The notes under the pieces were generated by a model. The model was not told the DNA's origin. It worked only from the letters and a program-made list of their open reading frames with translations, and ran no database searches. This document shows, piece after piece, positions 926-26,205 of a stretch of 32,402 nt of DNA (position 1 is its first letter; every line of letters begins with the position of its first letter). Source of the stretch: a virus; the IMG/VR virus record IMGVR_UViG_3300045988_187195, positions 1 to 32,402 of that record; one strand, given 5' to 3'. The position numbers were made by a program, and so were the translations under genes.

Positions 926-1687
926 TTATGCTACTTCAATTAATGGGCCACAATTTACCCAAATTCCACCGATTTTCGCAAGATTCTTTTGCACGTTGAC
1001 TTCATCAACACGGATTCTTGTTACATAGACAACGGCATTTGTTGTATGCAATACGTTATCATTATATCCATCAGAATAGCGAACTTTGTCAACCATACGA
1101 ATTGGAAACCAACCACCTAATTGTGCAAGGTATGCGCATAAATCGCCATTGATTTGTTTCAATCCTTGATTGCCAATCTTCATTTGAACTGATGTTACGT
1201 AGCTTCCTGCGTGCAAGATTTGGTCAATTGCTTCTACAGGTTGTGGAATGCTTGGTTTAACTGCTCCTGTATTTGCGAAACATTTAGGTCTAAAAGCAGT
1301 ATCAAAGGTTGCATAATAAGGTAATTTAATTAAATTGAATGCTCCGCCTTTTCCACCTTGATTCTGACCTAAGAACCATCCTTGCTTTCCGTCAATATCA
1401 GAATCAAAGATTGCGATATGACTGTAAGGCGTAACTCCTGCTACTTCTTTAAAGACTGCGATATCTCCGGCTTGCATGATTGAGACCTCATTACAATAAT
1501 TCAAGATACCATTTGTTTTTCTGTTATTCCAAATATCTTTTACAAATGTACTTGTTGTACAATGAATAGCTTGATAGCCTAAATCAATCATGTACTTTGC
1601 GAATCCGTCCCAACACTGAGCACCATAGTATCCGTCAATGTCGAAAGCTTTGCCTAATACGGCTTTTTTGAAATTTTGATAATTTAT
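926..1687 (-). CDS. Endolysin: N-terminal CHAP amidase/peptidase plus a C-terminal probable cell-wall-binding domain; apparent ATA start
   Basis: YYGAQCWDGF (Cys nucleophile) and SHIAIF (His) are CHAP motifs. GGAGGA (1699..1694) sits 6 nt before ATA 1687..1685, giving the N-terminus (M)NYQNFKKAVLGKAFDIDGYYGAQCWD. The track start TTG 1711 lies upstream of the SD and inside a TATAAT box. Confidence 0.85.
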   Translation of the reverse strand: MNYQNFKKAVLGKAFDIDGYYGAQCWDGFAKYMIDLGYQAIHCTTSTFVKDIWNNRKTNGILNYCNEVSIMQAGDIAVFKEVAGVTPYSHIAIFDSDIDGKQGWFLGQNQGGKGGAFNLIKLPYYATFDTAFRPKCFANTGAVKPSIPQPVEAIDQILHAGSYVTSVQMKIGNQGLKQINGDLCAYLAQLGGWFPIRMVDKVRYSDGYNDNVLHTTNAVVYVTRIRVDEVNVQKNLAKIGGIWVNCGPLIEVA

Positions 1688-1710
1688 TAAAAATCCTCCT
1701 TTATGTACCA

Positions 1711-1719
1711 ATTATAGCA
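1711..1719 (-). promoter_or_regulatory. Extended -10 element TGCTATAAT immediately upstream of the endolysin SD
   Basis: The minus strand reads TTTTATGTGCTATAATTGG. It is part of a 17-bp direct repeat, with the other copy at 845..861. Confidence 0.35.
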
Positions 1720-1735
1720 CATAAAAGAGTTTTTT

Positions 1736-2173
1736 TTACTGATATACAGAGAACATTTCTCTTAATTTATCTCTGACCATTTCTCTTTCTTCTTGAAAGT
1801 CGCTAGATGTTTTCATTTCTTCCAAGATTCCATACATAGCACTCAAAAAAGCTTCTAATTCACGAATAGAATTTCGCTTATCTATTTCATTGTTGCCTTT
1901 TCGATATTCTTTCTTTGCTTCTATATATTTCCTAAAATGAGAATTCATCAATGCGATATTGTCATCAATTTCCGTTCCTTCAATATTTGTGTCATTTGTT
2001 CTTAATGAATTTATAGCCGTTCTTCCATCACTCATAGCTAGTATTGTATCAATGTCTTTGATGTTGTCTAAAGCTTGGCTCATAACTCTAAAGTCTAAAT
2101 CATTGTATCCTTTTTCTAGTCCTCTCATTGCTTCCGTTAAGAGGTCTAGATTTCGTTTCCTAACCTCTTGCAT
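1736..2173 (-). CDS. Hypothetical helical protein, 145 aa
   Basis: ATG is preceded by TAGGTG. No family recognised. Confidence 0.6.
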   Translation of the reverse strand: MQEVRKRNLDLLTEAMRGLEKGYNDLDFRVMSQALDNIKDIDTILAMSDGRTAINSLRTNDTNIEGTEIDDNIALMNSHFRKYIEAKKEYRKGNNEIDKRNSIRELEAFLSAMYGILEEMKTSSDFQEEREMVRDKLREMFSVYQ

Positions 2174-2180
2174 GATACAC

Positions 2181-2600
2181 CTACGCTAATTTCTTAATGA
2201 TGATATTTGCATTTTGAACAGATAAATCTAAGCCACTGTTATTTCCTAGCGTGATTGTGTAAGAAGCTCCACAAGGTACTTGAATCAATGTAGCTCCACT
2301 AACATTTCCATATGCACTTGCAGTAGCTACATTATATAGAGATTCTGTTCCTCCTACTGCTTCTCCATTCTGTTCTAATTCTAAAGAAGCAACTCCTACC
2401 GTTGCACTTGTAATATCTGCCGTATATTCTACCTCATAGATTCCTTGTTTCGTTAATGTAAACAATCCACTTCCAACATCATGAGCAAGCCAACCTTTAC
2501 ATGCACATTGGCAAGATTTCGTTCTTACTCTATCTGTTGGAAATAATACATTTTGTCCATTTGCTACTGTCTGAATTGCCGTTGCTATACTATTAATCAT
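2181..2600 (-). CDS. BclA C-terminal-domain-like (C1q/TNF-like jelly-roll) protein without collagen repeats, 139 aa
   Basis: ATG is preceded by GGAGGAAAAGAAA. From memory, FTLTKQGIYEVEYTADITSA, LELEQNGEAVGGTES and the C-terminal NANIIIKKLA parallel the Bacillus BclA C-terminal domain (..SASIIIEKVA). There is also an N-terminal CxCxC cluster. Confidence 0.5.
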   Translation of the reverse strand: MINSIATAIQTVANGQNVLFPTDRVRTKSCQCACKGWLAHDVGSGLFTLTKQGIYEVEYTADITSATVGVASLELEQNGEAVGGTESLYNVATASAYGNVSGATLIQVPCGASYTITLGNNSGLDLSVQNANIIIKKLA

Positions 2601-4052: not shown

Positions 4053-4318
4053 TAATTTTCATCTAGATACGTTTCCTTTTCACTGCTTTTTCTTGGTGGT
4101 AAAACTGCGCTATACTTCTCTACTTCATCATACTTATTCTTAATCTTTTTAATGATTCTATTTACACTAGAAACGCTCATATTTAATCTATCGGCTTGTT
4201 CTCTGACTGTCCATCCGTATATTCTAGTTCTTAAAATCATTTCTTCATCTTTAGTTAATAAAGCTAGATTAATAAATTCTTCAAGGATAATCTTATTCCA
4301 AGGTGCTTGATTCGTCAT
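4052..4318 (-). CDS. Small sigma-70 region-4-like helix-turn-helix (HTH) regulator, 88 aa
   Basis: TKDEEMILRTRIYGWTVREQADRLNMSVSSVNRIIKKIKNKY resembles a region 4.2 HTH. The gene overlaps the holin 3' end by 26 nt. Confidence 0.5.
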   Translation of the reverse strand: MTNQAPWNKIILEEFINLALLTKDEEMILRTRIYGWTVREQADRLNMSVSSVNRIIKKIKNKYDEVEKYSAVLPPRKSSEKETYLDEN

Positions 4319-4808
4319 TGTCTTGTTCTTCGTTAACGAGTTTATCTGCTACTTCTAATCCTTTAGTTAATACGTTAGGCACGCTATATCCACATTGTAC
4401 AAGGTTCTCAATAATGCTACGCACTTCATTAATGCATAAAGAAGCTAATACGAACCATCCTAATAATGTTGTTACATGGAAATCAATTCCTAGCATTTTT
4501 CCAATTTCTACCAAGAATGCACTGAATGTGAACGCAACTACAATCATAATCCAATAGCCTAGCTTTTTAAGAACTCCAATCCATCCTTTATTGCTATTGA
4601 TTTTGTGATTAATCGCCGACTTCATGCACCCTGTAATATAATCCACAATATTCATAAATAAGAAGAACGCAAATAAATACCAATGCTCACCTAATACGTA
4701 TGTTAATACGGCTACGGCTACACCACACATTGCATTAATCTTATCTAAAAAAAACATACTTCTTGTTATTTGTTTAAATCCTCCATTTTTCTTTTCTATT
4801 AAATTCAC
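4293..4808 (-). CDS. Holin (phage_holin_4 / TcdE-like family); start uncertain (GTG 4808 inside the SD, or ATA 4799)
   Basis: It has three or four TM segments and the motif MNIVDYITGCMKSAI..KINSNKGWIGVLKKLGYW. The 5' context reads TAAGGAGTGAATTTA-ATA-GAA. Confidence 0.8.
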   Translation of the reverse strand: MNLIEKKNGGFKQITRSMFFLDKINAMCGVAVAVLTYVLGEHWYLFAFFLFMNIVDYITGCMKSAINHKINSNKGWIGVLKKLGYWIMIVVAFTFSAFLVEIGKMLGIDFHVTTLLGWFVLASLCINEVRSIIENLVQCGYSVPNVLTKGLEVADKLVNEEQDNDESSTLE

Positions 4809-5826: not shown

Positions 5827-6696
5827 CTATAAACCTAAATACCTTTCATTGTAATAAACCGTGCAAGCTAGATTCGTATCTCCATTGTCTGCCGTATATC
5901 CTATGATATTCTCACCTAACTGAATCGTCATATCATTGAATGATGATGTTCTGTCAACTTTGCCGATACAATTCACACCATTCTTTTTAATCGAAATAGG
6001 TTCTGAAACTAAATCAATTTCTAACACATCACCATTGTGTAGTGTATCTAATACACGAATATATTTATCTTTATTGAATAGTTTCGGATTTGTTACCTCT
6101 CCAAATGCTTCAATAACGGCTCTACAGTATGTTTCTGTATCGCCTTGATTATCAATATAGATTTCTCTAGCGAATGTAAATGTTCCAAAGTTTACGCCTG
6201 TTTCCGGTATTTCAAAATTGAACGCTAAACCTTCACCAATTTCTGCTATATTCCTTGCGAAATCATCAAATGAAAGCAATAAAGGTTGTGTGCATAGAAT
6301 CGTAAAGTTAAGCTCTAAATCTTTGTAGATGTTAGCAGTAGGCAAGCTATACGCATATAACCTTCCTCTGCAATATTTCTTTTCTCCCATGTACTCAACT
6401 ATCACATCAAATATATGAGAATATTGGAAGAAGCGCCGTAGCTTCTCCCTTTCTTCTCTTTTTTCTTCAAGTGAACCTTTAAATGTAGCTTTCACGCTTC
6501 TTTCTTTCGTTGGAATACGTGAACCGATTAATCTAGCACCATTTCCGAATGCATTGTCTTGAGTCGTATATGAAGGTGCTACATAATCAAATCCATCTAA
6601 ACCATCACTAGATGGTATTCTCCATCTTTTGTTGTCGATTTCAAATTCTTTGCCATCATCCCTACGGACAATAACTCTTACTTTATTGATATCTAT
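5827..6696 (-). CDS. Distal tail protein (Dit); apparent ATA start overlapping the tape-measure (TMP) stop (ATAG)
   Basis: GGAGG (6710..6706) sits 9 nt before ATA 6696..6694. The first canonical in-frame codon is GTG 6495, 67 codons downstream. The extended N-terminus (M)DINKVRVIVRRDDGKEFEIDNKRW reads like a real Dit N-terminus. Confidence 0.8.
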   Translation of the reverse strand: MDINKVRVIVRRDDGKEFEIDNKRWRIPSSDGLDGFDYVAPSYTTQDNAFGNGARLIGSRIPTKERSVKATFKGSLEEKREEREKLRRFFQYSHIFDVIVEYMGEKKYCRGRLYAYSLPTANIYKDLELNFTILCTQPLLLSFDDFARNIAEIGEGLAFNFEIPETGVNFGTFTFAREIYIDNQGDTETYCRAVIEAFGEVTNPKLFNKDKYIRVLDTLHNGDVLEIDLVSEPISIKKNGVNCIGKVDRTSSFNDMTIQLGENIIGYTADNGDTNLACTVYYNERYLGL

Positions 6697-9272
6697 TGAA
6701 CAACACCTCCATATCCATATCTTGCTTGCATACGTAACATTCTAGCAATTTCATCCGGACTTTGAACTTTATTGTAGAAGTTGATAGTTTGTCCGTTGTT
6801 ATTTGTTGTTACGCTAGGCATGATTTGAGCCATATCTTTAGCAACGGCACGAATCCACGCTTTATTTTTTTCTAATGGTACGACTGCTTCTGCTCCGTTA
6901 CCTTCCAATAAACCGATTTGACCACGCTTCAATACACCACCACGCTCTAGTCTTGGAATCCTTCCAATGTGTACACCGGGAATCTTATTGATGATACCGA
7001 TTGCGCCGTTAATGCCACCGATAACACCATTTACCATTCCTTTTACACTTCCAACTAATGAACTAACTGCTCCTTCAATTCCACCAAATACACCACTTAC
7101 AAATCCTTTTAAACCGCTCCATGAATTCTGTATTCCTTGTAGAACATTTGAAATTTTATTCCCTACATTATCCATTACACCTTGAACTTTAGACCAAATA
7201 CCATTGAATACATCAGAAACAGTACTCTTAACATTATTGAAATATTTATTGATATTATCAATAACACCTTTAACTTTATCTCCAACTCTGTTCATTGCAT
7301 CTTGAATCTTGCTCCAAATATTGTTTATGATATCCGAAACCGTCTTAAATAAATTGCTTACGAATCCAATAATCGCAGTAACTACTTCGCTAACCTTACT
7401 CCAAATATTCTGAGCAACAGTTAATATTACAGACCAAATATTCGCTACGATTGTAGCTACAATTTGAACAATAGGCATGATAAATCCTAGTATTGTTGCA
7501 ATTGCAGTTCCTACATACGTCACAACCATAGTTATAAATGAAATGATTCCACTTACCACACTTCCAACTACTTGAAGAATAGATGTTATTACAGGAGTCA
7601 TACCGATAACTGTTTGAATAATCTTCTTAATGATTGCTAGAATCGGTGGTCCTACAACGCTAAGAATCTTTTGAGCTTGGTTTACTACATTTTGAATTGC
7701 ACTGCCTATCTTGCTTAAAATTTCTTTTGCAATAGGTTCAAGTGCAACTTTCATTTCGTCAATCGCTTTTCTGACCTCATCAAAAGCAGGAGCTAACACC
7801 TCTGAAACTTGACTTGTCAATTCTGTAATTCCACTTGTATCAATCTTGCTTAATACATTTGAAATTACATCACCAACTTTAGCAAATCCTTGTTGAATGC
7901 CTTGTATAGCTACTGTAATTAATCCGATGATACCTGCAAGAATAGGGGTAATAAGTTCGCCTATTGGAGTAAATGAATCAAGAAATGCACGCCCTAAGCC
8001 ACTTAAAGCGTTCTTTAAGCCACCATTTGCAATATCTTTGACTTTATCCATTGCTCCTTCTACATCTTTATATTTATTTCCTACCGTAGTTAAGGATTCA
8101 ATAAATCCGGCGTTGAAATCTTCTCCCATTGTACCGAAAGCCGTTGCAGATTTATTCAATTTTTCTTGTTCATTTGTAGTCTTTGAAATATCTTCCACAA
8201 TCGCATTCACAACATCTTTTTGAGTTGCTCTTCCTTCTTGCCATGCCTTAAATACATCTTGTGTTTTGGTATCAAAACTATCTAAAGCTCCTTCAATAGT
8301 TCCATCAACTAACCTTGTGGTAACTTCGTTGATTGCGTCATTTACTTTATCAAGGTTATAAGCTCCACCATCTAATCCATTCTGCATTAATTGGAAATAT
8401 TCATCTGCCGAATATCCTGCTTGTGCGAATTTACCGGAGTATTCTGAAATGTTGTCGCCTAACTCATCTGATTTGTTTAAACCATTCTGAGCACCTGTAG
8501 CCATAAGGTCGAAAGCTTCTTTAGAACTAATTCCGAACTGCTTCATTAATTGTTGAGCACCTCTTAATGTTTCGTTCTCATCCATTCCGAATGTGTCTCT
8601 TAATGTCAATAAATCCTCAGTAACATCCTTTAAATCGACATCACTTATGCCTTGCATTTGTTGCTTGACACGTGCCATCATATCGGCAACATCTGAAATA
8701 TCTTCACCAAAATTGTTTGACCAAACATCACGAGCAATGTTTTTAAATTTGCTCATTTCATTGCTTGAAGCACCTGTCTGAGCTTGGAATTTAGCCATAG
8801 CGTCATCTAGTTCTGTAGCTTGGTTAACACCTGTCTTAATTGCTAATGCCATTCCACCGATAGCTCCTGCTACGGCAGTAACACCAACAACACCTCCTAC
8901 GCCTAATCCTGTTAGGGTTTCAGTGATTGTAGTTGCTTCCGGACTAATATTTTGAATCTTCTCTAGTAATCCATCAAACCCACCTTGAATTGATTCTAAG
9001 GCACTGTTTCCTACTTGTTTAAATACATCAAATTTAGAACCTGTTTCTTGCGTTTCTGTTTGTGTATTCTTTTGCTCTTCATTTAAATCTTTAAGTTTAT
9101 TTTTAATCTTTGGTGGTGCTTTTGAACCTTCAGAACCTAACTTATCTATCGCATTTGAAGTATCTTTAATAGCATTTGTAGCTTTATTTGATACATCACT
9201 AACCGATTTAATACCATTTTCAAGACCACTTGTATCTATCTTTGTATCAAACTTTAATGTTCCGTCTGATAT
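6693..9272 (-). CDS. Tape measure protein, 859 aa; apparent ATA start
   Basis: The frame is open from TGA 9275..9273. GGAGG (9288..9284) sits 11 nt before ATA 9272..9270. The first canonical in-frame start is ATG 8852, 140 codons downstream. It has a central hydrophobic block, periodic IWSK repeats, and a C-terminal GGVLKRGQIGLLEGNGAEAVVPL. Confidence 0.85.
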   Translation of the reverse strand: MSDGTLKFDTKIDTSGLENGIKSVSDVSNKATNAIKDTSNAIDKLGSEGSKAPPKIKNKLKDLNEEQKNTQTETQETGSKFDVFKQVGNSALESIQGGFDGLLEKIQNISPEATTITETLTGLGVGGVVGVTAVAGAIGGMALAIKTGVNQATELDDAMAKFQAQTGASSNEMSKFKNIARDVWSNNFGEDISDVADMMARVKQQMQGISDVDLKDVTEDLLTLRDTFGMDENETLRGAQQLMKQFGISSKEAFDLMATGAQNGLNKSDELGDNISEYSGKFAQAGYSADEYFQLMQNGLDGGAYNLDKVNDAINEVTTRLVDGTIEGALDSFDTKTQDVFKAWQEGRATQKDVVNAIVEDISKTTNEQEKLNKSATAFGTMGEDFNAGFIESLTTVGNKYKDVEGAMDKVKDIANGGLKNALSGLGRAFLDSFTPIGELITPILAGIIGLITVAIQGIQQGFAKVGDVISNVLSKIDTSGITELTSQVSEVLAPAFDEVRKAIDEMKVALEPIAKEILSKIGSAIQNVVNQAQKILSVVGPPILAIIKKIIQTVIGMTPVITSILQVVGSVVSGIISFITMVVTYVGTAIATILGFIMPIVQIVATIVANIWSVILTVAQNIWSKVSEVVTAIIGFVSNLFKTVSDIINNIWSKIQDAMNRVGDKVKGVIDNINKYFNNVKSTVSDVFNGIWSKVQGVMDNVGNKISNVLQGIQNSWSGLKGFVSGVFGGIEGAVSSLVGSVKGMVNGVIGGINGAIGIINKIPGVHIGRIPRLERGGVLKRGQIGLLEGNGAEAVVPLEKNKAWIRAVAKDMAQIMPSVTTNNNGQTINFYNKVQSPDEIARMLRMQARYGYGGVVQ

Positions 9273-12314: not shown

Positions 12315-12419
12315 CTATTTTTCTTTTTGAGGTTTAGCTTCCTCTTTTTTTGTTTGAGGTTTACCTTTTTTAGGCTTTTCAACTTTAGAAGGATAACCCC
12401 ATCCGATTTCTTTCGCCAT
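12315..12419 (-). CDS. Lys-rich micro-protein, 34 aa (MAKEIGWGYPSKVEKPKKGKPQTKKEEAKPQKEK)
   Basis: Not in the track. Its ATG overlaps the major-capsid stop codon (TAATG). Confidence 0.35.
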   Translation of the reverse strand: MAKEIGWGYPSKVEKPKKGKPQTKKEEAKPQKEK

Positions 12420-17391: not shown

Positions 17392-18791
17392 TCTTCGTCA
17401 TCCCCCTCTCCATCATCTTGAATTTCTTCATTCAACAATTCCGTTGCTTCTTCTTCGGTGAAACCGTATTGTTTCATAAAGTACATAATCTTTAATCTTG
17501 GAATATCAAATGTTAATGCGTCATTCCTTAACGCTTGTGCAGTGCTTTGTTTATCCTCGATATATGTATCGTCATAATCAATTGCAATGTCTAATGAATT
17601 GATATTAAGCTTTCTACCTTGTGTTAATTCATAGAAGTATGCTATTGCTTGAATGATATCTTGAATATATGCAGTAGATTCTTTACGTTGTGAGTTTACT
17701 TCCTTCATTGCGTCTTGATTCTCACCGATATATTCTGTTGCCGTTACAATTCTGCCACTTTCAAAAGTGTATTTTTTTGTACCAAATCCAAACATCATTG
17801 ATAAGATACTTAACGCAGTTTCTAATGATTGAACTACTTCTTGCGTTCTTACTGTTGGATTGTATTCCTGCCATAAAGCTTTTTCTTCCGGTAACTTGTC
17901 TCTGCCTAACTGAACAAATATCTTTTTCATTTGTGGATTCATCTTAATCTTTCCATTCTCGTCTTTCTGCATTAATGCTTCATTCACAAGAACGATTTTA
18001 TCCGATTTCAATAAATCTCTATTCCACATTGTCATTGTTAAATCAATTGTTTTCAAAGGAGCAATTGCACTCCAAATCTTCGGAAATCCGTAACCTTGCA
18101 TTTGTAAGTTGTTTACCTTTGCGTTTCTCATAATTGCAAAAGGCTTTACAACATCTAATTGAACAATCTGAGCACGGTCTTTTATTTCTTCGCCTGTATC
18201 TTTGAAGTAATGTGTTTCTGCGATATATCTTTCGTCTTGTCCTTTTAAGAACATGACCATCACATATATTTTTTTTAGTTTCTCATAATTTACTCCAACG
18301 AAAGCTACTTCCACAATTTCATCATTTATAACAGTTAATGGAAGGATATTCATTGAATCACAGTAGTTAATTCTAATGTCTCCCCCACTAAATGAACCAT
18401 CTTCATAAATTTCGGCATTTGCTACTGTAATATAAGCTCCTACTGTACCATTTGCAGACATTTGCTCAACTTGCTTTCTATACATAACATCAAACCTATT
18501 CTTGTTTAGAATGCCTGTAATAATATCATTTGTAGCACTGTCCTCTGTTGCGTTTATATCTAAGACTTCAATTAGATTTGCGTCATCTTCACACAAACGC
18601 TTTGCAAAGTCTGTCTTATCAAGTGTGTATTCCTCATTATTTAGCGTGTAAGCCGTATGAAATTCCGTTTCGGTATTTGTATACCATTTGTTGCACAATT
18701 CAATAATCTCAATTGCGTTTGTGTCTACATAATACCCTCTTTCGTTAAGGTAGTTTTGAAACCACGGTCTACGTGTGTTAGATGTTTCTAT
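17388..18791 (-). CDS. Portal protein (SPP1 gp6-like), 467 aa; apparent ATA start
   Basis: GGAGG (18802..18798) sits 6 nt before ATA 18791..18789. An in-frame TAA lies two codons upstream. The first canonical start is TTG 18698, 31 codons downstream. The acidic C-terminus and position after TerL support the call. Confidence 0.85.
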   Translation of the reverse strand: METSNTRRPWFQNYLNERGYYVDTNAIEIIELCNKWYTNTETEFHTAYTLNNEEYTLDKTDFAKRLCEDDANLIEVLDINATEDSATNDIITGILNKNRFDVMYRKQVEQMSANGTVGAYITVANAEIYEDGSFSGGDIRINYCDSMNILPLTVINDEIVEVAFVGVNYEKLKKIYVMVMFLKGQDERYIAETHYFKDTGEEIKDRAQIVQLDVVKPFAIMRNAKVNNLQMQGYGFPKIWSAIAPLKTIDLTMTMWNRDLLKSDKIVLVNEALMQKDENGKIKMNPQMKKIFVQLGRDKLPEEKALWQEYNPTVRTQEVVQSLETALSILSMMFGFGTKKYTFESGRIVTATEYIGENQDAMKEVNSQRKESTAYIQDIIQAIAYFYELTQGRKLNINSLDIAIDYDDTYIEDKQSTAQALRNDALTFDIPRLKIMYFMKQYGFTEEEATELLNEEIQDDGEGDDEE

Positions 18792-18794
18792 TTC

Positions 18795-20129
18795 TTACCT
18801 CCTTAAATCTATATATCCACTATGTGTGATAAATGTGTAGCAGAACGAATCCCAATCATCATTGATATTGTTTACGTTCTCATCTTTGGGAATATCTTTC
18901 TTTTCATCCCATACTAATTCGCTCAATGCGTTTATTAAATTCTTACAATGTTCTTCTATCTTTAACCTTCCTGTAACAAGTAAGCTATCAACTGTTATAG
19001 GACGGTCTGCAAGCTCATTCTTCTTAACCGGTGCAATTATACTTCCGTCTAATCCTTCTGCGTAGAAATAAGCTCTAAGCGTGTTTATAAGTGTATTAGA
19101 AGCACTATCCGGAAATATCCATTCAATATATCCATAACACTCAACACAACGCTTATAGAATCTTACAAATGCTTTGCAAAACTTTGTTGCGTCTATGGAA
19201 TTAGATTTTTCCATATCTCCCTCATCTAGTGCCCACATATAATCCCAATCGCTCGTGAATCCTGTTAAGTGCCATGAATACTTTGAGCCATTGTCTCCAA
19301 AGTCAACGCCTATGATTAAATGACTGAACCTTTTTCCTTCTTCCTTCATCTTTTCTTTTAGACTCTGATATTTGAATAAATAAGGTTTGCAGTTATTAGC
19401 AAAATAAGGGAATACAAGTCCTTCGGCTTCTTCCCTTTGTCCTTTTATGTCTCTTTTGTAATAAACGCTATTCTTATCGTATGATTTCAAGACCGTTCTT
19501 ATCTGCTCATCACTTAAAGAATAATTGTCAACTAAGGTGGTATGTCCATAGTTATAACCATATGTAGAATCTTTATTCTGTTGCTCCTCATGATATTTCA
19601 AGAATTCCGTATAATACCAATGATTCTTTCCTTTTGGGTTTAAATCATGAAATATCTTTCTATCGCTTGACGCTATCGTTCTATCCATCACTTCTTGCAA
19701 GAACTCTATGCAACAAAGGTTTGCTTCTGTTACATATGCCATTCCATATGAATAACCATGTATCGCATTCTCTGAGCCTTTCTTCGCACCACCGGCAAAG
19801 AATACAACCTTCTCTCCTACCTTTGTATTGATGTAATAACAATCTTTACCTTCATACTTCCCTACTTTGAATCTATTAGCAAAATAGTTTTGCAAACCAT
19901 ATCCATTACAATCTCCAATATTAACACGTGCAGATGATGTATCTGTTCCTGCTATCAAATGGAATTTATCCGGATGTGTTTCTAATGCAATGCAGAAAGC
20001 GTATGTGTTGAGTACGTTCTTTCCTCCACGCTTGCCACCTTCTAATACATTAAGCCATGAATCAAATGTTTTTTTAAGATAAGTTAATTGCTTTTGATTG
20101 AAAGGCGCAGGCTTATTCAAAGTCTTCAA
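18795..20129 (-). CDS. terL: Terminase large subunit, 444 aa (TTG start)
   Basis: It has a Walker-A-like GGKRGGKN and nuclease-domain acidic motifs. It overlaps the 3' end of terS. Confidence 0.85.
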   Translation of the reverse strand: MKTLNKPAPFNQKQLTYLKKTFDSWLNVLEGGKRGGKNVLNTYAFCIALETHPDKFHLIAGTDTSSARVNIGDCNGYGLQNYFANRFKVGKYEGKDCYYINTKVGEKVVFFAGGAKKGSENAIHGYSYGMAYVTEANLCCIEFLQEVMDRTIASSDRKIFHDLNPKGKNHWYYTEFLKYHEEQQNKDSTYGYNYGHTTLVDNYSLSDEQIRTVLKSYDKNSVYYKRDIKGQREEAEGLVFPYFANNCKPYLFKYQSLKEKMKEEGKRFSHLIIGVDFGDNGSKYSWHLTGFTSDWDYMWALDEGDMEKSNSIDATKFCKAFVRFYKRCVECYGYIEWIFPDSASNTLINTLRAYFYAEGLDGSIIAPVKKNELADRPITVDSLLVTGRLKIEEHCKNLINALSELVWDEKKDIPKDENVNNINDDWDSFCYTFITHSGYIDLRR

Positions 20130-20502
20130 TACTTCTTTCTTTTGCTACATCTGTAATCATAGCTTTATTAATTGCATTTACTTCTGAAGCGTCAAAATGT
20201 GTTTCTACCTTATCTGATTGACCTAAGAATTGTTTGCCTAAGAAAATAGCCATAGCAGGACTCTTTGAAGCTAGTTTAAATTGCGCTCTTCGTAACGAAA
20301 TTCTTCCTTGTGCGCCGAACCTTTTTAAACATTCGGAGAAATCAGTTCCATATGTACGTTTACACCATTTTGATAGTGTCTTATCTGTCGTGTTAAAAAA
20401 ATAGCATACTTCTGCTTGCGTGCATTGAATAGCTAACAATTTTTCAAATTCTTCTTTGTCGAAATCCTTGTTAGGTCTTCCAACTTTTCCATTCGCTATT
20501 AT
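20113..20502 (-). CDS. terS: Terminase small subunit, about 129 aa; apparent ATA start (tandem ATA ATA)
   Basis: The in-frame TAG is at 20517..20515. AAAGGGGA precedes ATA 20502..20500 and ATA 20499..20497. The first canonical start, TTG 20439, has no SD. The N-terminus is (M)ANGKVGRPNKDFDKEEFEKLLAIQCTQAEV. Confidence 0.75.
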   Translation of the reverse strand: MIANGKVGRPNKDFDKEEFEKLLAIQCTQAEVCYFFNTTDKTLSKWCKRTYGTDFSECLKRFGAQGRISLRRAQFKLASKSPAMAIFLGKQFLGQSDKVETHFDASEVNAINKAMITDVAKERSIEDFE

Positions 20503-20804: not shown

Positions 20805-20829
20805 TAAAAGAGCCGAGACAAACGCTCGG
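20805..20829 (-). terminator. Weak hairpin plus a short T tract between the tRNA and the first late ORF
   Basis: On the minus strand: CCGAG, a 7-nt loop, CTCGG, then CTCTTTTAA. It ends only about 8 nt before the SD of the 20524..20787 ORF. Confidence 0.35.
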
Positions 20830-20910: not shown

Positions 20911-20986
20911 TGGTTGCAGGAGAAGGAATTGCACCATTCGACCTCTAGCTAATAAGACTAGTGAGCTACTACTGCTCTATCCTGCT
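20911..20986 (-). tRNA. Initiator-type tRNA with anticodon UAU (would be auto-annotated as tRNA-Ile-TAT), 76 nt, CCA encoded
   Basis: Minus-strand cloverleaf: AGCAGGA-TA-GAGC-AGTAGTA-GCTC-A-CTAGT-CTTATTA-GCTAG-AGGTC-GAA(T)GG-TGCAATT-CCTTC-TCCTGCA-A-CCA. It shows an A1xA72 mismatch, U8, A14, A11:U24 and A73. The anticodon TAT lies at 20954..20952. Deviations: no G18G19, G55, U37, one bulged T in the T stem, and only one G:C pair in the lower anticodon stem. Confidence 0.75.
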
Positions 20987-20992: not shown

Positions 20993-21001
20993 ATTATTAC
21001 A
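20993..21001 (-). promoter_or_regulatory. Extended -10-like element TGTAATAAT placed 6 nt upstream of tRNA position 1
   Basis: The minus strand reads CATGTAATAATTGTTTT followed by AGCAGG. The predicted transcription start would coincide with the mature tRNA 5' end. Confidence 0.3.
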
Positions 21002-21003: not shown

Positions 21004-21026
21004 AAAAAATGCTCACGTTGTGAGCA
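21004..21026 (-). terminator. Rho-independent terminator overlapping the end of the late-activator gene
   Basis: On the minus strand: TGCTCAC, loop AAC, GTGAGCA, then TTTTTT. The stop codon TGA lies inside the 3' arm. Confidence 0.65.
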
Positions 21027-21339
21027 CTTTCTTCAAGTTCTTATTTATTTTTCTTGGAATCTCTTCTCGTGCATAACCTACAATATTAGATGTTTTTTCT
21101 GCACTGAATCCCTTTATATATCTATACTCAATCATGGCTCGAGTTGTATCATCAAGTTGGCTTAATTTGTCTTTTACATAATTCATTCTTCTTGCATAAT
21201 CTGCATGAGCCAAGAATAGCTCGGCTTTTAATGGATAAATTGCTTCATCCCTTTGTAGCTCTGCTATCTTTTGCTCATAGTATGTGTAAGATTGACATTC
21301 ACATAAGAAGTGTCTCTTAATATCTTCATACGTGCTCAT
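21013..21339 (-). CDS. Late-gene transcriptional activator (sigma region-4 / ArpU-RinA-like), 108 aa
   Basis: RAMIEYRYIKGFSAEKTSNIVGYAREEIPRKINKNLKK forms an HTH. It lies immediately upstream of the packaging module, and its ATG is coupled by ATGA. Confidence 0.55.
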   Translation of the reverse strand: MSTYEDIKRHFLCECQSYTYYEQKIAELQRDEAIYPLKAELFLAHADYARRMNYVKDKLSQLDDTTRAMIEYRYIKGFSAEKTSNIVGYAREEIPRKINKNLKKVLTT

Positions 21340-21530
21340 GAACTGTATACCTTATACAATCTATTTTCTAATTCGCCAACTTTACTTTTTAATTTCTTAA
21401 TTTCTTGAGCTTGATTATGAATTGTTGCGTTTCTTTCTTTTATAGTTTGATTAAGCTCAATATTCGTCCTTCCTAGTTTATTGTTTTTTGAAATTAACTC
21501 TTTAATCCTTTCTTCATAATTCATTTCTAT
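21336..21530 (-). CDS. Coiled-coil protein, about 64 aa; start ambiguous (ATA 21530, ATG 21524, or GTG 21539 inside the SD)
   Basis: The context reads GGAGGTGGCTTCA-ATA-GAA-ATG. ATA is 8 nt from GGAGG and ATG is 14 nt. Confidence 0.5.
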   Translation of the reverse strand: MEMNYEERIKELISKNNKLGRTNIELNQTIKERNATIHNQAQEIKKLKSKVGELENRLYKVYSS

Positions 21531-21546: not shown

Positions 21547-22134
21547 TTAATTTAATGATTTGATAAAATCACAATACCGCTTTATATAACTCCATTTGTT
21601 TGAATATTTGTAATATTTGCTAGAATGCTCTCCTACACTTATTTGGCTTATCCCTATAACATCTTTACTAGGAATTACCAATACATCTAAAACCTGTTCA
21701 TCATCACTAAGTATGTACAAGATATATATGTCGCAAGTTGGATATGTTTTTTCTAAGTTGAATGTGTAAAAGCTCCCATTCCTACCTCTGTATAAGGTAC
21801 TTGCTTTTACATCAACTTTTACACATTCATTCACTAAAATATCATACGGATGTTTTGTAGACATTTTGATAGCTTCATATCCTTTGTCCTCTATATAATC
21901 CATAAATTTCAATTCATATTTTCTGCCGAAATTTGTTCTACTTGGTTTTGATTCCAAATGTAATTCTTTTGCTAAAGGAAACCATAGATTTCTTTTTGAA
22001 ATTGCATTGCCTAATTTTGAATCTCCATAGTATTCTTCAACTTCTCTTCTTGTAGGCATTCTGTTTAATCCTGTATCAATAATCATTTCTTTGATTTGTG
22101 ATTTTATCTTTTCTTCTGTCCAATGTTCTCTTAT
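21547..22134 (-). CDS. PD-(D/E)XK-type endonuclease-like protein with an N-terminal WTEEK repeat motif, 195 aa; apparent ATA start
   Basis: GGAGG (22145..22141) sits 6 nt before ATA 22134..22132. An in-frame TAA lies two codons upstream. ATG 22086 has no SD. The C-terminus has PYDILVNECVKVDVKAS (D..(D/E)xK). Confidence 0.55.
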   Translation of the reverse strand: MREHWTEEKIKSQIKEMIIDTGLNRMPTRREVEEYYGDSKLGNAISKRNLWFPLAKELHLESKPSRTNFGRKYELKFMDYIEDKGYEAIKMSTKHPYDILVNECVKVDVKASTLYRGRNGSFYTFNLEKTYPTCDIYILYILSDDEQVLDVLVIPSKDVIGISQISVGEHSSKYYKYSNKWSYIKRYCDFIKSLN

Positions 22135-24223: not shown

Positions 24224-24738
24224 TAATACCCCTCCTTCAATCTCTGATAGTTGATTTTGTTCTTTTCGCAATAAGCTTGATACACATCTTCGATTGTGAA
24301 GCCTAAGTATTCTGTGATTGCGATTAATGGTTCTACTTTCCACAATGAAAAACTTGATAATTCCGCTAATTTTATAACAATACCGTTTCCGTATTCTTCA
24401 ATTGACCACCGATTATCGTCAACTTTTTCCATTAATTGCTCATCTGTTAACAATCCTTCTTCACCACCATTAAAGTTGTTTTGCCAACTTAATACAAAAT
24501 GCCAAATATCAACTAATTCGCCTAATACCTTATTATCATCAACAGGTGCTTGAGTTTTCTTCCACCAACACCAGTTGGCTTTGAGTTCGTGAGTCAACTC
24601 ACCGACTTCATCTAGGATTGCAAAGCTCAACTTCTCTTCATCAATACAAAATAATCCATATTCTTTCATAATTGCTTCATCCAATTTGGCTTGCATTTGT
24701 AGCATTTCTTTAATCAATTCAATATCTTTAATTGTCAT
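24223..24738 (-). CDS. Dimeric all-alpha dUTPase / MazG-like NTP pyrophosphohydrolase, 171 aa
   Basis: AILDEVGELTHELKANWCWWKKTQAPVD..VLGELVDIWHFVLS matches the dUTPase_2-type motifs as I recall them. Confidence 0.65.
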   Translation of the reverse strand: MTIKDIELIKEMLQMQAKLDEAIMKEYGLFCIDEEKLSFAILDEVGELTHELKANWCWWKKTQAPVDDNKVLGELVDIWHFVLSWQNNFNGGEEGLLTDEQLMEKVDDNRWSIEEYGNGIVIKLAELSSFSLWKVEPLIAITEYLGFTIEDVYQAYCEKNKINYQRLKEGY

Positions 24739-24756
24739 ATTTATTTATCTCTCTTT

Positions 24757-25491
24757 CTATGCTCTTAATATTTCCCTTCTCACTCGTTCCATTTCTTTCT
24801 GTACATCTGCATACGATTGATTGCTTTCTTGTGCATAGAATTTAGAATCAAGTTTTACAGGATTGTTCTTATTTCTTTTCATCCATTCATCATGTACCCA
24901 TTTTTGAATCACTAGTGAATGGTTCTTGTATTTCTTTCCACTCGTTTCAATATACTCATCCAAAATCTTTATATGCTCATCTAATGAATCACCATATAAA
25001 TCTAATAGGTGTGTGTGTTCTTTATCTGTAAGTAACACGTGTGAATATTCACCGTATTTGTGTTTACTTACTTTTAATTTATTATTAATTTTAGTATTAA
25101 TAACTTTATTATTATCTGTATACATTTCTACACTAGGGGTAGTATAAAAATTTACACTAGGGTCATGTACGTTTTTATATGGGGTAGTATAAAAATTTAC
25201 ACTAGGGTTGATATATAATTTTCGTTGCAATACTTGTTTTGTTCCTTCTTTATAAATCAACTCTAAACTGATATACCCTTTTTTAACTAATGCACTAATC
25301 CATTTTTTTACCGCAGATACTGAACAATGATACAAATCTGCGAAATATTGATTTGTTGCCCAACAATATCCTTTTTCATTACACAATGATGTAATTTCTC
25401 CATACAATAGTTTTGCGTTTGGTGGCAATTCTTCATCATATCGAACTTCCGCAGGTATTATTGCGTAATACGATTTCTTTAGTTCTGATAT
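24757..25491 (-). CDS. Replisome organiser / replication initiator (N-terminal winged HTH, DnaD-like C-terminus) containing the iterons; apparent ATA start
   Basis: GGAGG (25504..25500) sits 8 nt before ATA 25491..25489. Both track GTG codons lie inside the SD. The product contains LPPNAKLLYGEITSLCNEKGYCWATNQYFADLY. Confidence 0.65.
   Translation of the reverse strand: MSELKKSYYAIIPAEVRYDEELPPNAKLLYGEITSLCNEKGYCWATNQYFADLYHCSVSAVKKWISALVKKGYISLELIYKEGTKQVLQRKLYINPSVNFYTTPYKNVHDPSVNFYTTPSVEMYTDNNKVINTKINNKLKVSKHKYGEYSHVLLTDKEHTHLLDLYGDSLDEHIKILDEYIETSGKKYKNHSLVIQKWVHDEWMKRNKNNPVKLDSKFYAQESNQSYADVQKEMERVRREILRA
25129..25208. repeat. Iterons: a 28-bp perfect direct repeat x2 plus a third partial copy (candidate origin)
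   Basis: GGGGTAGTATAAAAATTTACACTAGGGT occurs at 25136..25163 and 25181..25208. The core ACACTAGGG also occurs at 25130..25138. An AT-rich tract lies just upstream (25081..25120). Confidence 0.7.
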
Positions 25492-25492
25492 T

Positions 25493-25840
25493 TTAATCAC
25501 CTCCACCTAAAACAACCACTTGCTTTAGGATTTCATCAATGATTTTGTCGGTGTATTTTATATAGCATTTGATTCTTTTATCACTAAAATATCCGTCAAT
25601 TTTGCGCAACGCTTTATATATTGCAATTATTCTTTCTCGGTTTAATCCTTCTTTTGTGTAGTCATTACACCCATTTAATCTATCCATGAATTCCTTTGTA
25701 ATGTCATAACAAGTACACATTTCTTCATACACGCCAATTGCATTTGTATCTTTTCCAGTTTCTTCAATTAAGTAAAATGAATTAAACTCATCAAAATAAA
25801 TTTGCTTTGCTACATTTACTGCCATTTCTTCTTCTCTCAT
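25493..25840 (-). CDS. Hypothetical protein, 115 aa
   Basis: The ATG is coupled by ATGA to the rusA stop. Confidence 0.6.
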   Translation of the reverse strand: MREEEMAVNVAKQIYFDEFNSFYLIEETGKDTNAIGVYEEMCTCYDITKEFMDRLNGCNDYTKEGLNRERIIAIYKALRKIDGYFSDKRIKCYIKYTDKIIDEILKQVVVLGGGD

Positions 25841-26205
25841 AAAATCTCTACCTCTATCCTTGGATTCTCCTTATCTGTAAATACTGAATGATTCACTTGA
25901 TTAATGTATTTCCTTGAATCATCCTCTAATATTCCTGTTCTAACTAATGAATCTTGAATGAATTTAGTTGCAAATGTGATATTGTCTATATCTCTTTTGT
26001 TATTTAGCTCATACCAATTAACATTTAATTTAATTGGGTAGTTCTTAACTTCGTAAATTTCACCAAAGTTTACTGCCTGTAAGATATAAGCCATTACAAG
26101 ACGCTCATTCTTTTTCTTCATTTCTGCTCCTTTGTAACGATTTGTTCTGCAAGCATTAATATATTCATTCAATCCATCTAGTTTTCCTTTTATTACAAAC
26201 TTTAT
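25837..26205 (-). CDS. rusA: RusA-family Holliday junction resolvase, 122 aa; apparent ATA start overlapping the upstream stop (ATAA)
   Basis: GGGGGA sits 6 nt before ATA 26205..26203, giving (M)KFVIKGKLDGLNEYINACR. The RDIDNITFATKFIQDSLVRTGILEDD motif is present. The track ATG 26283 would overlap the upstream gene by 82 nt. Confidence 0.75.
   Translation of the reverse strand: MKFVIKGKLDGLNEYINACRTNRYKGAEMKKKNERLVMAYILQAVNFGEIYEVKNYPIKLNVNWYELNNKRDIDNITFATKFIQDSLVRTGILEDDSRKYINQVNHSVFTDKENPRIEVEIL

What the first reader, a model, noticed from the sequence alone, without database searches (positions are those of the whole stretch)
926..26205. At least 12 genes, including most major virion proteins, appear to initiate at ATA
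The supplied ORF track uses ATG, GTG and TTG starts (I verified this on several ORFs). For these genes it begins well inside the protein or inside the SD. In each case the frame is open upstream to a stop, there is no canonical in-frame start there, and an ATA lies at normal distance from a strong SD. The ATA coordinates and contexts are as follows. terS: 20502..20500, AAAGGGGA, tandem ATA ATA. Portal: 18791..18789, GGAGG plus 6 nt. Fibre: 17391..17389. Major capsid: 13288..13286, GGAGG plus 8 nt. gp10-like: 11534..11532, GGGAGG plus 10 nt. Major tail: 10740..10738, AAAGGAG plus 8 nt. Tape measure: 9272..9270, GGAGG plus 11 nt, with the first ATG 140 codons later. Dit: 6696..6694, GGAGG plus 9 nt, with the first GTG 67 codons later. 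Endolysin: 1687..1685, GGAGGA plus 6 nt. rusA: 26205..26203, GGGGGA plus 6 nt. Nuclease: 22134..22132, GGAGG plus 6 nt. Replisome organiser: 25491..25489, GGAGG plus 8 nt. Possible further cases are the holin (4799), the 21336 gene (21530) and a small ORF (29137). The recovered N-termini look like genuine family N-termini, for example ANGKVGRPNK for TerS, ANQIALAKTYV..LDEVYK for the capsid, ATQGTEV for the major tail, NYQNFKKAVLGKAFDIDGYYGAQCWD for CHAP, and KFVIKGKL for RusA. Neighbouring genes with ATG starts use the same SD geometry, so the SD logic holds in this genome. ATA is also common internally as an Ile codon, so this is start-codon usage and not codon reassignment. ATA starts are very rare in bacteria and are normally rejected by IF3. 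A frequency near 20 percent, concentrated in highly expressed structural genes, is exceptional.
Basis: partly seen in the sequence, partly recalled or inferred. Interest (0 to 1): 0.95.

Follow-up and report, generated by a model that had tools for sequence, protein, structure and literature searches.

The report
Phage initiator tRNA reading ATA starts
A gut prophage starts about a quarter of its genes, including most virion and lysis genes, with ATA instead of ATG, and it carries its own initiator-type tRNA whose anticodon matches ATA, which looks like a natural private start-codon system not described before.

Summary
On the minus strand, 14 of 59 genes (24%) have a strong Shine-Dalgarno site followed by ATA and no usable canonical start. 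ATT and ATC never take this role. The window matches a public assembly exactly, so nothing was planted. In about 35 independently assembled relatives the start ATA is kept in 223 of 224 cells, and the one exception is ATG. Internal ATA codons drift freely to ATT, ATC, GTA and TTA, so internal ATA means Ile. More than 40 distant capsid homologues have ATG exactly at the ATA position. All 29 host genes flanking the prophage start with ATG.

The likely cause lies inside the window. A tRNA gene at 20911-20986 (-), missed by ARAGORN, has anticodon UAU. It also has initiator hallmarks: a 1:72 mismatch, G2:C71, C3:G70, A11:U24, G30:C40 and A73. Its only E. coli matches, at 78% identity, are tRNA-Met genes; the top hit, the one inspected, is a three-gene tRNA-Met cluster I take to be the initiator locus metZWV.

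Every ATA start is preceded by A (20/20, against 21/40 for ATG). That A complements the tRNA's unusual U37, which suggests a four-base AAUA:UAUU pairing.

A second lineage, only 41-63% identical in protein, has the same tRNA type and the same gene-by-gene split between ATA and ATG. Function is inferred and has not been shown.

The parts
20911..20986 (-). tRNA gene with anticodon UAU (loop CUUAUUA), A1xA72 mismatch, G2:C71, C3:G70, A11:U24, G30:C40, A73 and an encoded CCA. Proposed dedicated initiator tRNA for AUA.
   Evidence: Rfam tRNA hit of 48 bits; ARAGORN misses it. The MFE fold is a cloverleaf with 1:72 unpaired. There are 3 compensatory pairs in the anticodon stem across 9 variants. Its only E. 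coli matches are tRNA-Met genes; the top hit is a three-gene tRNA-Met cluster taken to be metZWV, 78% identity over 99% of its length.
20993..21001 (-). Possible extended -10 promoter (TGTAATAAT; TGCGATAAT in some relatives) 6 nt upstream of the tRNA.
   Evidence: Read from the sequence; conserved in relatives. Not flagged by the sigma-70 scan, which needs a -35 element. This is inference only.
21010..21026 (.). Terminator-like hairpin between the upstream gene and the tRNA. On the minus strand it is followed by TTTTTT.
20813..20829 (-). Terminator-like hairpin downstream of the tRNA, ahead of the packaging and structural genes.
   Evidence: conserved in relatives, with an analogous hairpin in L206
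25837..26205 (-). RusA-like gene, ATA start at 26205-26203, A at -1.
   Evidence: the L213 homologue also starts with ATA
24757..25491 (-). Replication initiation / DnaD-like gene, ATA start at 25491-25489.
   Evidence: The PHROG profile begins at residue 6, while the first canonical codon is codon 22. The L213 homologue starts with ATA.
21547..22134 (-).
21336..21530 (-). Small gene, probable ATA start at 21530-21528 (an ATG lies 2 codons downstream).
20113..20502 (-). Small terminase, tandem ATA ATA at 20502-20497. The second ATA (20499) may be the start.
17388..18791 (-). Portal, ATA start at 18791-18789.
   Evidence: The L206 ortholog (63% identity) also starts with ATA.
16579..17391 (-).
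12419..13288 (-). Major capsid protein, ATA start at 13288-13286.
   Evidence: The L206 ortholog (54% identity) also starts with ATA.
11172..11534 (-). Minor head / neck protein, ATA start at 11534-11532.
   Evidence: The L206 ortholog (58% identity) starts with ATA.
10234..10740 (-). Putative major tail protein, ATA start at 10740-10738.
   Evidence: one relative has ATG at this codon
6693..9272 (-). Tape measure protein, ATA start at 9272-9270. The first canonical codon is 140 codons downstream.
5827..6696 (-). Dit (distal tail protein), ATA start at 6696-6694. The first canonical codon is 67 codons downstream.
4293..4799 (-). Holin, ATA start at 4799-4797.
   Evidence: (24 relatives ATA, 3 ATG)
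926..1687 (-). CHAP endolysin, ATA start at 1687-1685. The catalytic Cys (GAQCWD, residue 25) lies before the first ATG (codon 33).

Best explanation
The window is a temperate siphovirus prophage of an uncultured human-gut bacterium related to Erysipelotrichaceae. It encodes its own initiator-type tRNA whose anticodon has changed from CAU to UAU.

About a quarter of the phage's genes have a strong SD followed by A-AUA and no AUG. These include terS, portal, a head protein, the major capsid, a neck protein, the major tail protein, the tape measure, Dit, holin, endolysin, RusA and a replication initiator. I propose that the phage tRNA enters the ribosomal P site at these sites and pairs with AUA. 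I further propose that its unusual U37 pairs with the invariant A at -1, giving a four-base contact that compensates for an all-A:U codon-anticodon helix.

The 1:72 mismatch, G2:C71, C3:G70 and A11:U24 should direct the tRNA to the formylase and IF2 and keep it away from EF-Tu. Internal AUA would then still be read as Ile by host tRNA. The retained G30:C40 pair should let it pass the IF3/16S rRNA check.

What is shown: the ATA starts, their conservation, the tRNA and its features, the A(-1)/U37 complementarity, and their co-occurrence in two distant lineages.

What is inferred: that this tRNA does the initiating; which amino acid it carries (most likely Ile via IleRS, because MetRS needs C34; possibly formylated); and the biological purpose. 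The most likely purpose is to make a fixed subset of lytic-cycle genes depend on a phage-controlled tRNA.
For: 1. ATA is a genuine start position.
- SD+ATA geometry holds at 14 genes.
- Met1 of more than 40 capsid homologues aligns with the ATA, as does Met1 of the phage B30 endolysin.
- PHROG and Pfam profiles begin upstream of the first canonical codon.

2. Selection acts on the start ATA.
- Seven start columns are ATA in 223 of 224 cells, and the single change is to ATG.
- By contrast, 22 of 27 internal ATA columns vary, to ATT, ATC, GTA and TTA and never to ATG (Fisher p=1.5e-4).
- ATA and ATG swap only at start codons.

3. It is not a host habit. All 29 flanking host genes start with ATG, against 14/59 ATA starts in the phage (p=0.004).

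4. The tRNA.
- Rfam scores it at 48 bits, with anticodon UAU and initiator signatures.
- Only tRNA-Met genes match it in all 5,426 E. coli genomes, with a median of 4 places per genome. I inspected only the top hit: three adjacent tRNA-Met genes between mltA and amiC, which I identify from memory as the initiator locus metZWV.
- The anticodon stem shows three compensatory pairs.

5. A at -1 occurs in 14/14 window ATA starts and 6/6 L206 ATA starts, against 21/40 ATG starts (p=8e-5). It complements the invariant U37.

6. Co-occurrence.
- Every relative whose contig covers the region has the tRNA.
- L206/L182 (41-63% protein identity) and L213 carry UAU/U37 initiator-like tRNAs. They use ATA for the orthologous terS, portal, capsid and neck genes, and for rusA and the replication initiator, but ATG for scaffold, minor capsid and connectors. 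All 8 orthologs are concordant.
- ATG-using outgroups have no such tRNA. The L036 group has an initiator-like tRNA with a CAU anticodon.

7. Experimental precedent.
- Anticodon-mutant initiator tRNAs initiate at matching codons, while native tRNAfMet reads AUA at 0.1-1% (PMC11744186).
- G30:C40 alone suffices for initiator function (PMC5389676).
- Pairing between -1 and position 37 was shown with A37U/A37G compensatory mutants (PMC10018350).
Against: - There is no expression, aminoacylation or proteomic data.
- The tRNA lacks the full three G:C pairs. The window variant is A29:U41 / G30:C40 / U31.G39.
- In the window family the tRNA has an odd T arm (a bulged nucleotide, and G at position 55) and a D loop with a single G. 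This is why ARAGORN rejects it.
- U37 removes the A37 that IleRS-type recognition often uses, so charging is uncertain.
- In Firmicutes, AUA after an extended SD can give about 10-30% of AUG output with the host initiator alone (PMC13009471). A dedicated tRNA is therefore not strictly required for some expression.
- The phage uses internal ATA somewhat more than the host does (22% against 13% of Ile codons), which would fit an elongator role.
- ATA-start genes include early genes upstream of the tRNA, so a simple 'late-gene lock' does not fit.
- Other initiator-like UAU tRNAs with a paired 1:72 (L150, L153, the L154 group) are not accompanied by ATA starts.
- Only 29 host genes could be examined.
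Confidence: 0.75

Rival explanations
1. Attenuation by a weak start codon. The host initiator tRNAfMet reads AUA inefficiently, helped by the strong SD. The phage tRNA is only an elongator tRNA-Ile(UAU) that supplies internal AUA codons.
For: AUA starts with extended SDs work at about 10-30% of AUG in S. aureus (infC, ccpN, citZ; PMC13009471). Phages often carry tRNA-Ile for ATA (PMC10688831). The phage uses internal ATA more than the host does (22% against 13% of Ile codons).
Against: - The tRNA has a 1:72 mismatch, G2:C71, C3:G70 and A11:U24. It matches only tRNA-Met genes in E. coli, not tRNA-Ile, and the top hit is the cluster I take to be metZWV.
- It has U37 where ANN-reading elongators have A37.
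- The invariant A(-1) complementary to U37 is unexplained by this model.
- ATA marks the most abundant virion proteins (capsid, tail tube), for which attenuation makes little sense.
- The ATA/ATG split is conserved gene by gene across lineages that are 41-63% identical.
Confidence: 0.13
2. A host-wide property. The host lineage tolerates ATA starts generally (relaxed IF3 or an unusual host initiator), and the phage simply mirrors it.
For: The host is related to Erysipelotrichaceae, which to my knowledge are close to Mollicutes, where non-canonical starts and variant initiator tRNAs occur (PMC5389676). Only about 29 host genes were seen.
Against: None of 29 host genes starts with ATA, against 14 of 59 phage genes (p=0.004). 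The phage's lysogeny genes and its first 13 early genes also avoid ATA.
Confidence: 0.04
3. The ATA is converted to AUG or an AUG equivalent after transcription or in the DNA. Examples would be A-to-I editing of the third base, or a modified base misread by sequencing.
For: AUI would read as AUG. All the sites share an AAUA context, which could be an editing motif.
Against: No deaminase or modification gene was found among the proteins scanned. The contigs are prophage DNA joined to host flanks in many independent assemblies. This model does not explain a UAU initiator-like tRNA that co-occurs with the sites.
Confidence: 0.03
4. Artefact: sequencing or assembly error, or decayed pseudogenes in a defective prophage.
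For: The source contig has only about 9x coverage (record name).
Against: The same ATA codons occur in about 35 or more independent contigs, with variation around them. The frames are intact over up to 859 codons. The only changes seen at these codons are to ATG.
Confidence: 0.01

Closest known systems
Bacterial initiator tRNA (tRNAfMet, e.g. E. coli metZWV/metY)
   Same: Shares the 1:72 mismatch, G2:C71, C3:G70, A11:U24, G30:C40, A73, the D stem GAGC/GCUC and the variable loop AGGUC. It is 78% identical to the E. coli tRNA-Met gene cluster I take to be metZWV.
   Different: The anticodon is UAU, not CAU. Position 37 is U, not A. Only one or two of the three G:C pairs remain, and 31:39 is U.G. 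The window family has an altered D loop and T arm. The gene is phage-encoded.
Engineered anticodon-mutant initiator tRNAs (amber initiator tRNA-CUA and other orthogonal initiation systems)
   Same: An initiator body with a changed anticodon initiates at the matching non-AUG codon, usually carrying the amino acid dictated by the new anticodon (PMC11744186).
   Different: Those systems are laboratory constructs. This one is natural, conserved, and paired with a fixed set of genes. It also carries a position-37 change matched to the -1 base.
Stop-codon recoding in phages with phage-encoded suppressor tRNAs (TAG or TGA recoding in crAss-like and Lak phages)
   Same: A phage-encoded tRNA with a changed anticodon is matched to non-standard codon use that is concentrated in structural and lysis genes (PMC9523058, listed; the rest is from my own knowledge).
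   Different: That system works in elongation at stop codons. This one works in initiation at a sense codon, whose internal meaning (Ile) is unchanged.
Regulatory non-canonical starts read by the host initiator (infC AUU/AUA, S. aureus ccpN and citZ AUA)
   Same: An AUA start after an extended SD in a Firmicute (PMC13009471).
   Different: Those are a handful of genes per genome, used to lower expression, with no dedicated tRNA. Here 24% of genes are involved, including the most abundant proteins, and there is a matching tRNA.
Quadruplet pairing between initiator tRNA and mRNA (-1 with position 37)
   Same: Complementarity between the base 5' of the start codon and tRNA position 37. In E. coli, A37U mutants favour A at -1 (PMC10018350).
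   Different: In E. coli this is a modest modulating effect with U(-1):A37. Here the complementary pair is inverted, A(-1):U37, and is invariant at all 20 ATA starts examined.
Elongator tRNA-Ile(UAU) of Mycoplasma mobile, Lactobacillus plantarum and some phages
   Same: UAU anticodon reading AUA (PMC10688831 and its reference list).
   Different: From my own knowledge, those tRNAs have a paired 1:72, A37 (t6A) and a tRNA-Ile body. This tRNA has an initiator body, a 1:72 mismatch and U37.

Membership tests
Bacterial initiator tRNA | Mismatch at 1:72 | tested here: met
   A1xA72 in all window-family variants and L213; C1xA72 in L206/L182
Bacterial initiator tRNA | Formylase determinants G2:C71 and C3:G70, plus A11:U24 | tested here: met
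   Invariant in all variants
Bacterial initiator tRNA | Three consecutive G:C pairs at 29:41, 30:40 and 31:39 | tested here: not met
   The window variant has A:U / G:C / U.G. Variant 4, L206 and L213 have G:C / G:C / U.G. The essential middle pair G30:C40 is invariant. According to PMC5389676 this pair suffices in E. coli.
Bacterial initiator tRNA | Anticodon CAU | tested here: not met
   UAU in all variants
Bacterial initiator tRNA | Overall sequence closest to initiator tRNAs rather than elongators | tested here: met
   The only E. coli matches are tRNA-Met genes, with a median of 4 places per genome. The one hit inspected is a three-gene tRNA-Met cluster between mltA and amiC, which I identify from memory as metZWV.
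Bacterial initiator tRNA | Formylated aminoacyl form, bound by IF2, enters the P site directly | not testable with these tools
   Needs biochemistry
Elongator tRNA-Ile(UAU) | UAU anticodon | tested here: met
Elongator tRNA-Ile(UAU) | Watson-Crick 1:72 pair (for EF-Tu binding) and a purine at position 37 | tested here: not met
   1:72 is mismatched and U37 is invariant
Non-AUG initiation at AUA (start-codon usage, not reassignment) | Homologue N-termini align with the ATA codon, and internal ATA remains Ile | tested here: met
Phage recoding system (phage tRNA matched to unusual codon use in a subset of phage genes) | The tRNA and the unusual codon use co-occur across lineages, and both are absent from relatives lacking either | tested here: met
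   The window family, L213 and L206/L182 have both. L036-L093 have neither a UAU tRNA nor ATA starts in the DNA held.
Phage recoding system (phage tRNA matched to unusual codon use in a subset of phage genes) | The tRNA is required for translation of the recoded genes | not testable with these tools
   Needs reporter assays or genetics

The most novel reading that the evidence does not exclude
This is a natural orthogonal initiation code. A phage-encoded, initiator-derived tRNA reads a four-base AAUA start signal through U34-A35-U36-U37. It begins a fixed, evolutionarily conserved subset of phage proteins with (formyl-)isoleucine rather than methionine. This gives the phage a private channel of translation initiation that host mRNAs cannot use and that host or rival elements cannot easily exploit.
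Probability: 0.45. Interest if true: 0.97.

Novelty: categorically new. Interest (0 to 1): 0.93.

Why it matters
- Bacterial translation is taken to start with one initiator tRNA at AUG, GUG or UUG. A virus that brings a second initiator with a different anticodon, and rewrites a quarter of its start codons to match, would be the first natural case I know of start-codon recoding. Until now such orthogonal initiation systems existed only as laboratory constructs.
- It makes several questions directly testable. Which amino acid starts these proteins? How does IF3 accept a UAU initiator with a single G:C pair? Is the -1:37 contact a real fourth base pair in nature?
- It matters for annotation. 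Public gene calls truncate these proteins. The capsid is called at 256 aa instead of 289, the tape measure at 719 instead of 859, and Dit at 222 instead of 289. ARAGORN does not report the tRNA.
- This prophage family is abundant in human gut metagenomes, with dozens of IMG/VR, ENA and Logan contigs.

Tried and rejected
- **Planted or erroneous sequence:** rejected. The window is identical to a public contig, and the ATA codons recur in independent assemblies.
- **AUA reassigned to Met:** rejected. Internal ATA aligns with I/V/L in distant homologues (Met fraction 0.05). It is replaced by ATT, ATC, GTA and TTA in close relatives.
- **Near-identical phage in GenBank:** none found by megablast.
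- **Apparent ATA starts in L046, L077 and L078:** these turned out to be ATA-ATG pairs or weak internal sites.
- **Other UAU tRNAs with initiator-like D arms:** L150 and L153/L180 have U1:A72 and the L154 group has C1:G72, all paired. L151 and L171 have C1xU72. The DNA held for them shows no convincing ATA starts, so I did not count them as the same system.
- **TadA-type editing motif:** no common UACG-like loop context at the sites (read directly from the sequences).
- **Start-stop 'ATG TAA' or 'ATG TAG' mini-ORFs near terS and TerL:** considered as re-initiation signals, but they are not general to the ATA sites.
- **The TAG/TAA overlap after many ATA starts (ATAG, ATAA):** not distinguishable from ordinary second-codon preferences.
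- **Literature:** eight searches found no report of a natural phage UAU initiator tRNA or of ATA-start phages. The library is not complete, so absence is not proof.

Full report

I re-read every claimed site on the minus strand. Each has ATA at the stated coordinate and an SD core (GGAGG, AGGAG, GGGGGA or similar) 4-12 nt upstream. The frame is closed a few codons further upstream, and the first ATG/GTG/TTG lies 11 to 140 codons downstream.

I listed every strong SD in the window together with the start-like triplet behind it. The triplet is ATG about 30 times and ATA about 15 times. At intergenic SDs it is never ATT or ATC.

A curated census of 59 minus-strand genes gives 40 ATG, 14 ATA, 3 TTG and 2 GTG.

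The window is an exact substring of the public assembly ENA ERZ1311564 NODE_587_length_39787. The ATA codons are therefore in the deposited data.

**2. Are these true start positions, and are they under selection?**

The capsid protein found about 35 close relatives in IMG/VR (91-96% identity) and more than 40 distant homologues (62% identity or less) in IMG/VR and GTDB genomes.
- Every close relative has ATA at the aligned first codon, while the second codon varies (GCA, GCG, CCA).
- Every distant homologue has ATG at that same position, behind its own SD.

For seven structural genes the start column is ATA in 223 of 224 cells, and the single exception is ATG. In the same alignments, 22 of 27 internal ATA columns vary. 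They change to ATT (125 cells), ATC (75), GTA and TTA, and never to ATG (p=1.5e-4).

Elsewhere, holin has ATG in 3 relatives, and gene 16575 (ATG here) has ATA in 2 relatives. ATA and ATG are therefore interchangeable only at start positions.

Against distant homologues, internal ATA aligns with I/V/L just as ATT and ATC do, and Met accounts for only 0.05. This is start-codon usage, not reassignment.

The endolysin aligns from its second residue with the characterised phage B30 lysin. B30 Met1 falls on the ATA, and the catalytic Cys of the CHAP domain (GAQCWD, residue 25) lies upstream of the first ATG at codon 33. PHROG profiles for the replication initiator, the head protein and the neck protein also begin before the first canonical codon.

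**3. Is it the host?**

The element is a prophage, with an integrase at 31278-32375. Sister contigs carry host DNA beyond the integrase: a Ser/Thr kinase and the aromatic amino-acid operon. An empty-site contig, L108, was also recovered.

The host chorismate synthase is 71-76% identical to those of Faecalitalea, Floccifex and an unnamed Bacillota MAG. The host is therefore an uncultured gut bacterium related to Erysipelotrichaceae.

All 21 genes of L108 and the 8 flank genes of L096 start with ATG. That is 0/29 against 14/59 in the phage (p=0.004).

Within the phage, the lysogeny genes and the first 13 early genes also avoid ATA. All 14 ATA starts lie from rusA onward (p=0.03).

**4. The tRNA**

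ARAGORN reports no tRNA. Rfam finds one at 20914-20986 (-) with 48 bits. With its encoded CCA the gene spans 20911-20986.

Its sequence is AGCAGGA-UA-GAGC-AGUAGUA-GCUC-A-CUAGU-CUUAUUA-GCUAG-AGGUC-GAAuGG-UGCAAUU-CCUUC-UCCUGCA-A-CCA. The anticodon is UAU, the complement of AUA.

Initiator-like features:
- A1 and A72 cannot pair.
- G2:C71, C3:G70 and A11:U24 are present.
- G30:C40 is present.
- The discriminator is A73.
- The MFE fold is a cloverleaf with 1:72 open.

In all 5,426 complete E. coli genomes the only matches are tRNA-Met genes, at 78% identity over 99% of the length, with a median of four places per genome. I inspected only the top hit. It is a run of three tRNA-Met genes between mltA and amiC, which I identify from memory as the initiator locus metZWV.

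Nine sequence variants occur in the relatives. The anticodon stem shows three fully compensatory pair changes (CUAGU/GCUAG against UCGGU/GCCGA), while the loop CUUAUUA never changes.

Non-canonical features:
- Only one or two of the three G:C pairs are present.
- 31:39 is U.G.
- Position 37 is U.
- In the window family the T stem has a bulged nucleotide, the T loop reads UGCAAUU, and the D loop has a single G.

A relative, L213, has the same acceptor stem and anticodon loop but a canonical D loop (GG) and T arm (GGAGG-UUCAAAU-CCUUC). The odd elbow is therefore a derived state.

Published work shows that G30:C40 alone can sustain initiator function in E. coli, and that au/GC/gu variants exist naturally (PMC5389676).

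**5. A four-base signal**

The base before the ATA start is A in 14 of 14 window genes, against 21 of 40 ATG starts (p=0.0009). It is A in every distinct context seen in relatives, while positions -2, -3 and +4 vary. It is also A in 6 of 6 ATA starts of the second lineage. Combined, p=8e-5.

Internal ATA codons show no such preference.

A at -1 is the Watson-Crick partner of U37. Höllerer and Jeschek showed, using A37U and A37G initiator mutants in E. coli, that complementarity between mRNA position -1 and tRNA position 37 raises initiation (PMC10018350).

The phage appears to have fixed the inverted pair. This gives AAUA:UAUU, four A:U pairs in place of the usual triplet that contains a G:C pair.

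**6. Co-occurrence across lineages**

Every relative whose contig reaches the region carries the tRNA.

A pattern scan of IMG/VR and one of the JGI metagenomes found a second lineage: L182 (4.3 kb) and L206 (OKRT01001577.1, 10.3 kb). Its tRNA is CGCAAGG...CUUAUUA...CCUUGCA-A-CCA, with C1xA72 as in E. coli tRNAfMet, U37, U31.G39 and a normal T arm.

L206 proteins are only 41-63% identical to those of the window. Even so:
- terS, portal, capsid, the neck protein and two further genes start with A-ATA.
- TerL, minor capsid, scaffold and two connector genes start with ATG.

Among the eight orthologues detectable by tblastn, ATA-versus-canonical start status agrees in all eight. TerL's codon itself differs, TTG in the window and ATG in L206.

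Outgroups of similar divergence (L036-L048, L046, L077, L078) use ATG. In the DNA held, they lack a UAU tRNA. The L036 group instead carries an initiator-like tRNA with a CAU anticodon, a G1xG72 mismatch and three G:C pairs just upstream of its capsid gene. This is a plausible ancestral state.

**7. Mechanism proposed**

Shown:
- the ATA starts, and selection on them;
- the initiator-derived UAU tRNA;
- the A(-1)/U37 match;
- their joint phylogenetic distribution;
- their absence from the host genes sampled.

Inferred:
- The tRNA is aminoacylated, probably by IleRS. From my own knowledge, MetRS depends on C34, and Firmicute IleRS enzymes accept UAU anticodons.
- It is formylated by virtue of the acceptor-stem determinants, recruited by IF2, and accepted by IF3 through G30:C40.
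- It is excluded from elongation by the 1:72 mismatch.

Engineered initiator tRNAs with altered anticodons behave in exactly this way. The native initiator reads AUA at only 0.1-1% in E. coli (PMC11744186).

The tRNA sits between two terminator-like hairpins, behind a conserved TGn-[A/G]ATAAT element. It lies immediately downstream of a small gene with weak similarity to sigma factors and upstream of the packaging genes. This suggests an independently controlled unit.

The purpose is open. Possibilities include:
- gating a fixed set of lytic genes on a phage-controlled RNA;
- insulating them from competition for, or attack on, the host initiator;
- making the genes useless to satellites or rival phages.

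Because three or four early genes also use ATA, a pure late-gene lock is not sufficient.

**8. Rivals**

- *Attenuation.* This is the main alternative: AUA read weakly by the host initiator, as for infC, ccpN and citZ in S. aureus (10-30% of AUG; PMC13009471), with the tRNA serving as an elongator for internal AUA. That codon is somewhat commoner in the phage than in the host, at 22% against 13% of Ile codons. This model does not explain the initiator body and 1:72 mismatch, the U37/A(-1) match, the use of ATA for the most abundant virion proteins, or the gene-by-gene conservation of the split.
- *Host-wide habit, RNA editing, artefact.* Each is disfavoured by the data above.

**9. Limits**

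- There is no experimental evidence.
- Only 29 host genes were available.
- The second lineage is known from 10 kb.
- Charging identity is unknown.
- The literature library is incomplete.
- Some initiator-like UAU tRNAs in other phages (paired 1:72, A37) are not accompanied by ATA starts. The defining signature seems to be the 1:72 mismatch together with the CUUAUUA loop.

Noticed in passing
L036:9260-9334 (also L037-L041 and L048): Distant relatives (capsid 52% identical, ATG starts, GC 44%) carry an initiator-like tRNA with a CAU anticodon, a G1xG72 mismatch and three G:C pairs, just upstream of the capsid gene. This may be the ancestral state of the UAU tRNA.
   Followed up: partly
L036:8839-8918: A skipping-rope RNA (RF02924, 60.6 bits) lies about 340 nt upstream of that tRNA in the same distant phage.
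   Followed up: no
L154, L164, L174, L175, L176, L187, L188 (mostly ~29-59 kb IMG/VR contigs): Another phage group has a UAU tRNA (loop UUUAUAG) with an initiator-type anticodon stem (UCGGG/CCCGA, three G:C pairs) but a paired C1:G72 and discriminator U73. No ATA starts are evident in the DNA held, and its role is unknown.
   Followed up: partly
window 20911-20986 compared with L213:7926-8002: In the window family the D loop (AGUAGUA, one G) and the T loop (UGCAAUU, G at position 55, plus a bulged base in the T stem) differ together from the canonical GG / UUCAAAU of L213 and L206. This could be covariation of the tRNA elbow, which would be of interest because IF3 contacts the initiator elbow.
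   Followed up: partly
window 20120-20150 (-): The TerL start is unclear. There is TTG at 20129 or 20120 with a weak SD, preceded in frame by ATG-TAG at 20150-20145. TerL is not an ATA gene in either lineage.
   Followed up: no
window 29012-29164 (-): This small ORF could start at ATG 29164 (no SD) or at ATA 29137 (GGAGGTGA upstream, A at -1, first ATA conserved in relatives). Unresolved.
   Followed up: partly
window 926-13288; L001 and L104 gene tables: Public gene calls for this contig truncate the ATA-start proteins: capsid 256 aa against 289, tape measure 719 against 859, Dit 222 against 289, RusA 94 against 122. They start the lysin inside its SD (261 aa, TTG). The same error should affect all relatives in protein databases.
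   Followed up: yes
window 31278-32402; L096-L101 and L108: The prophage integrates next to a host Ser/Thr kinase gene and the aroB/aroC/aroA operon. L094, L095 and L103 show the integrase end joined to the lysis end, which indicates circular or tandem forms.
   Followed up: partly
window 21013-21339 (-): The gene immediately upstream of the tRNA has weak similarity to sigma factors (phrog_1740, E=4e-4). L206 has an HTH gene, itself ATA-started, at the same position. This is a possible late-gene regulator linked to the tRNA.
   Followed up: no
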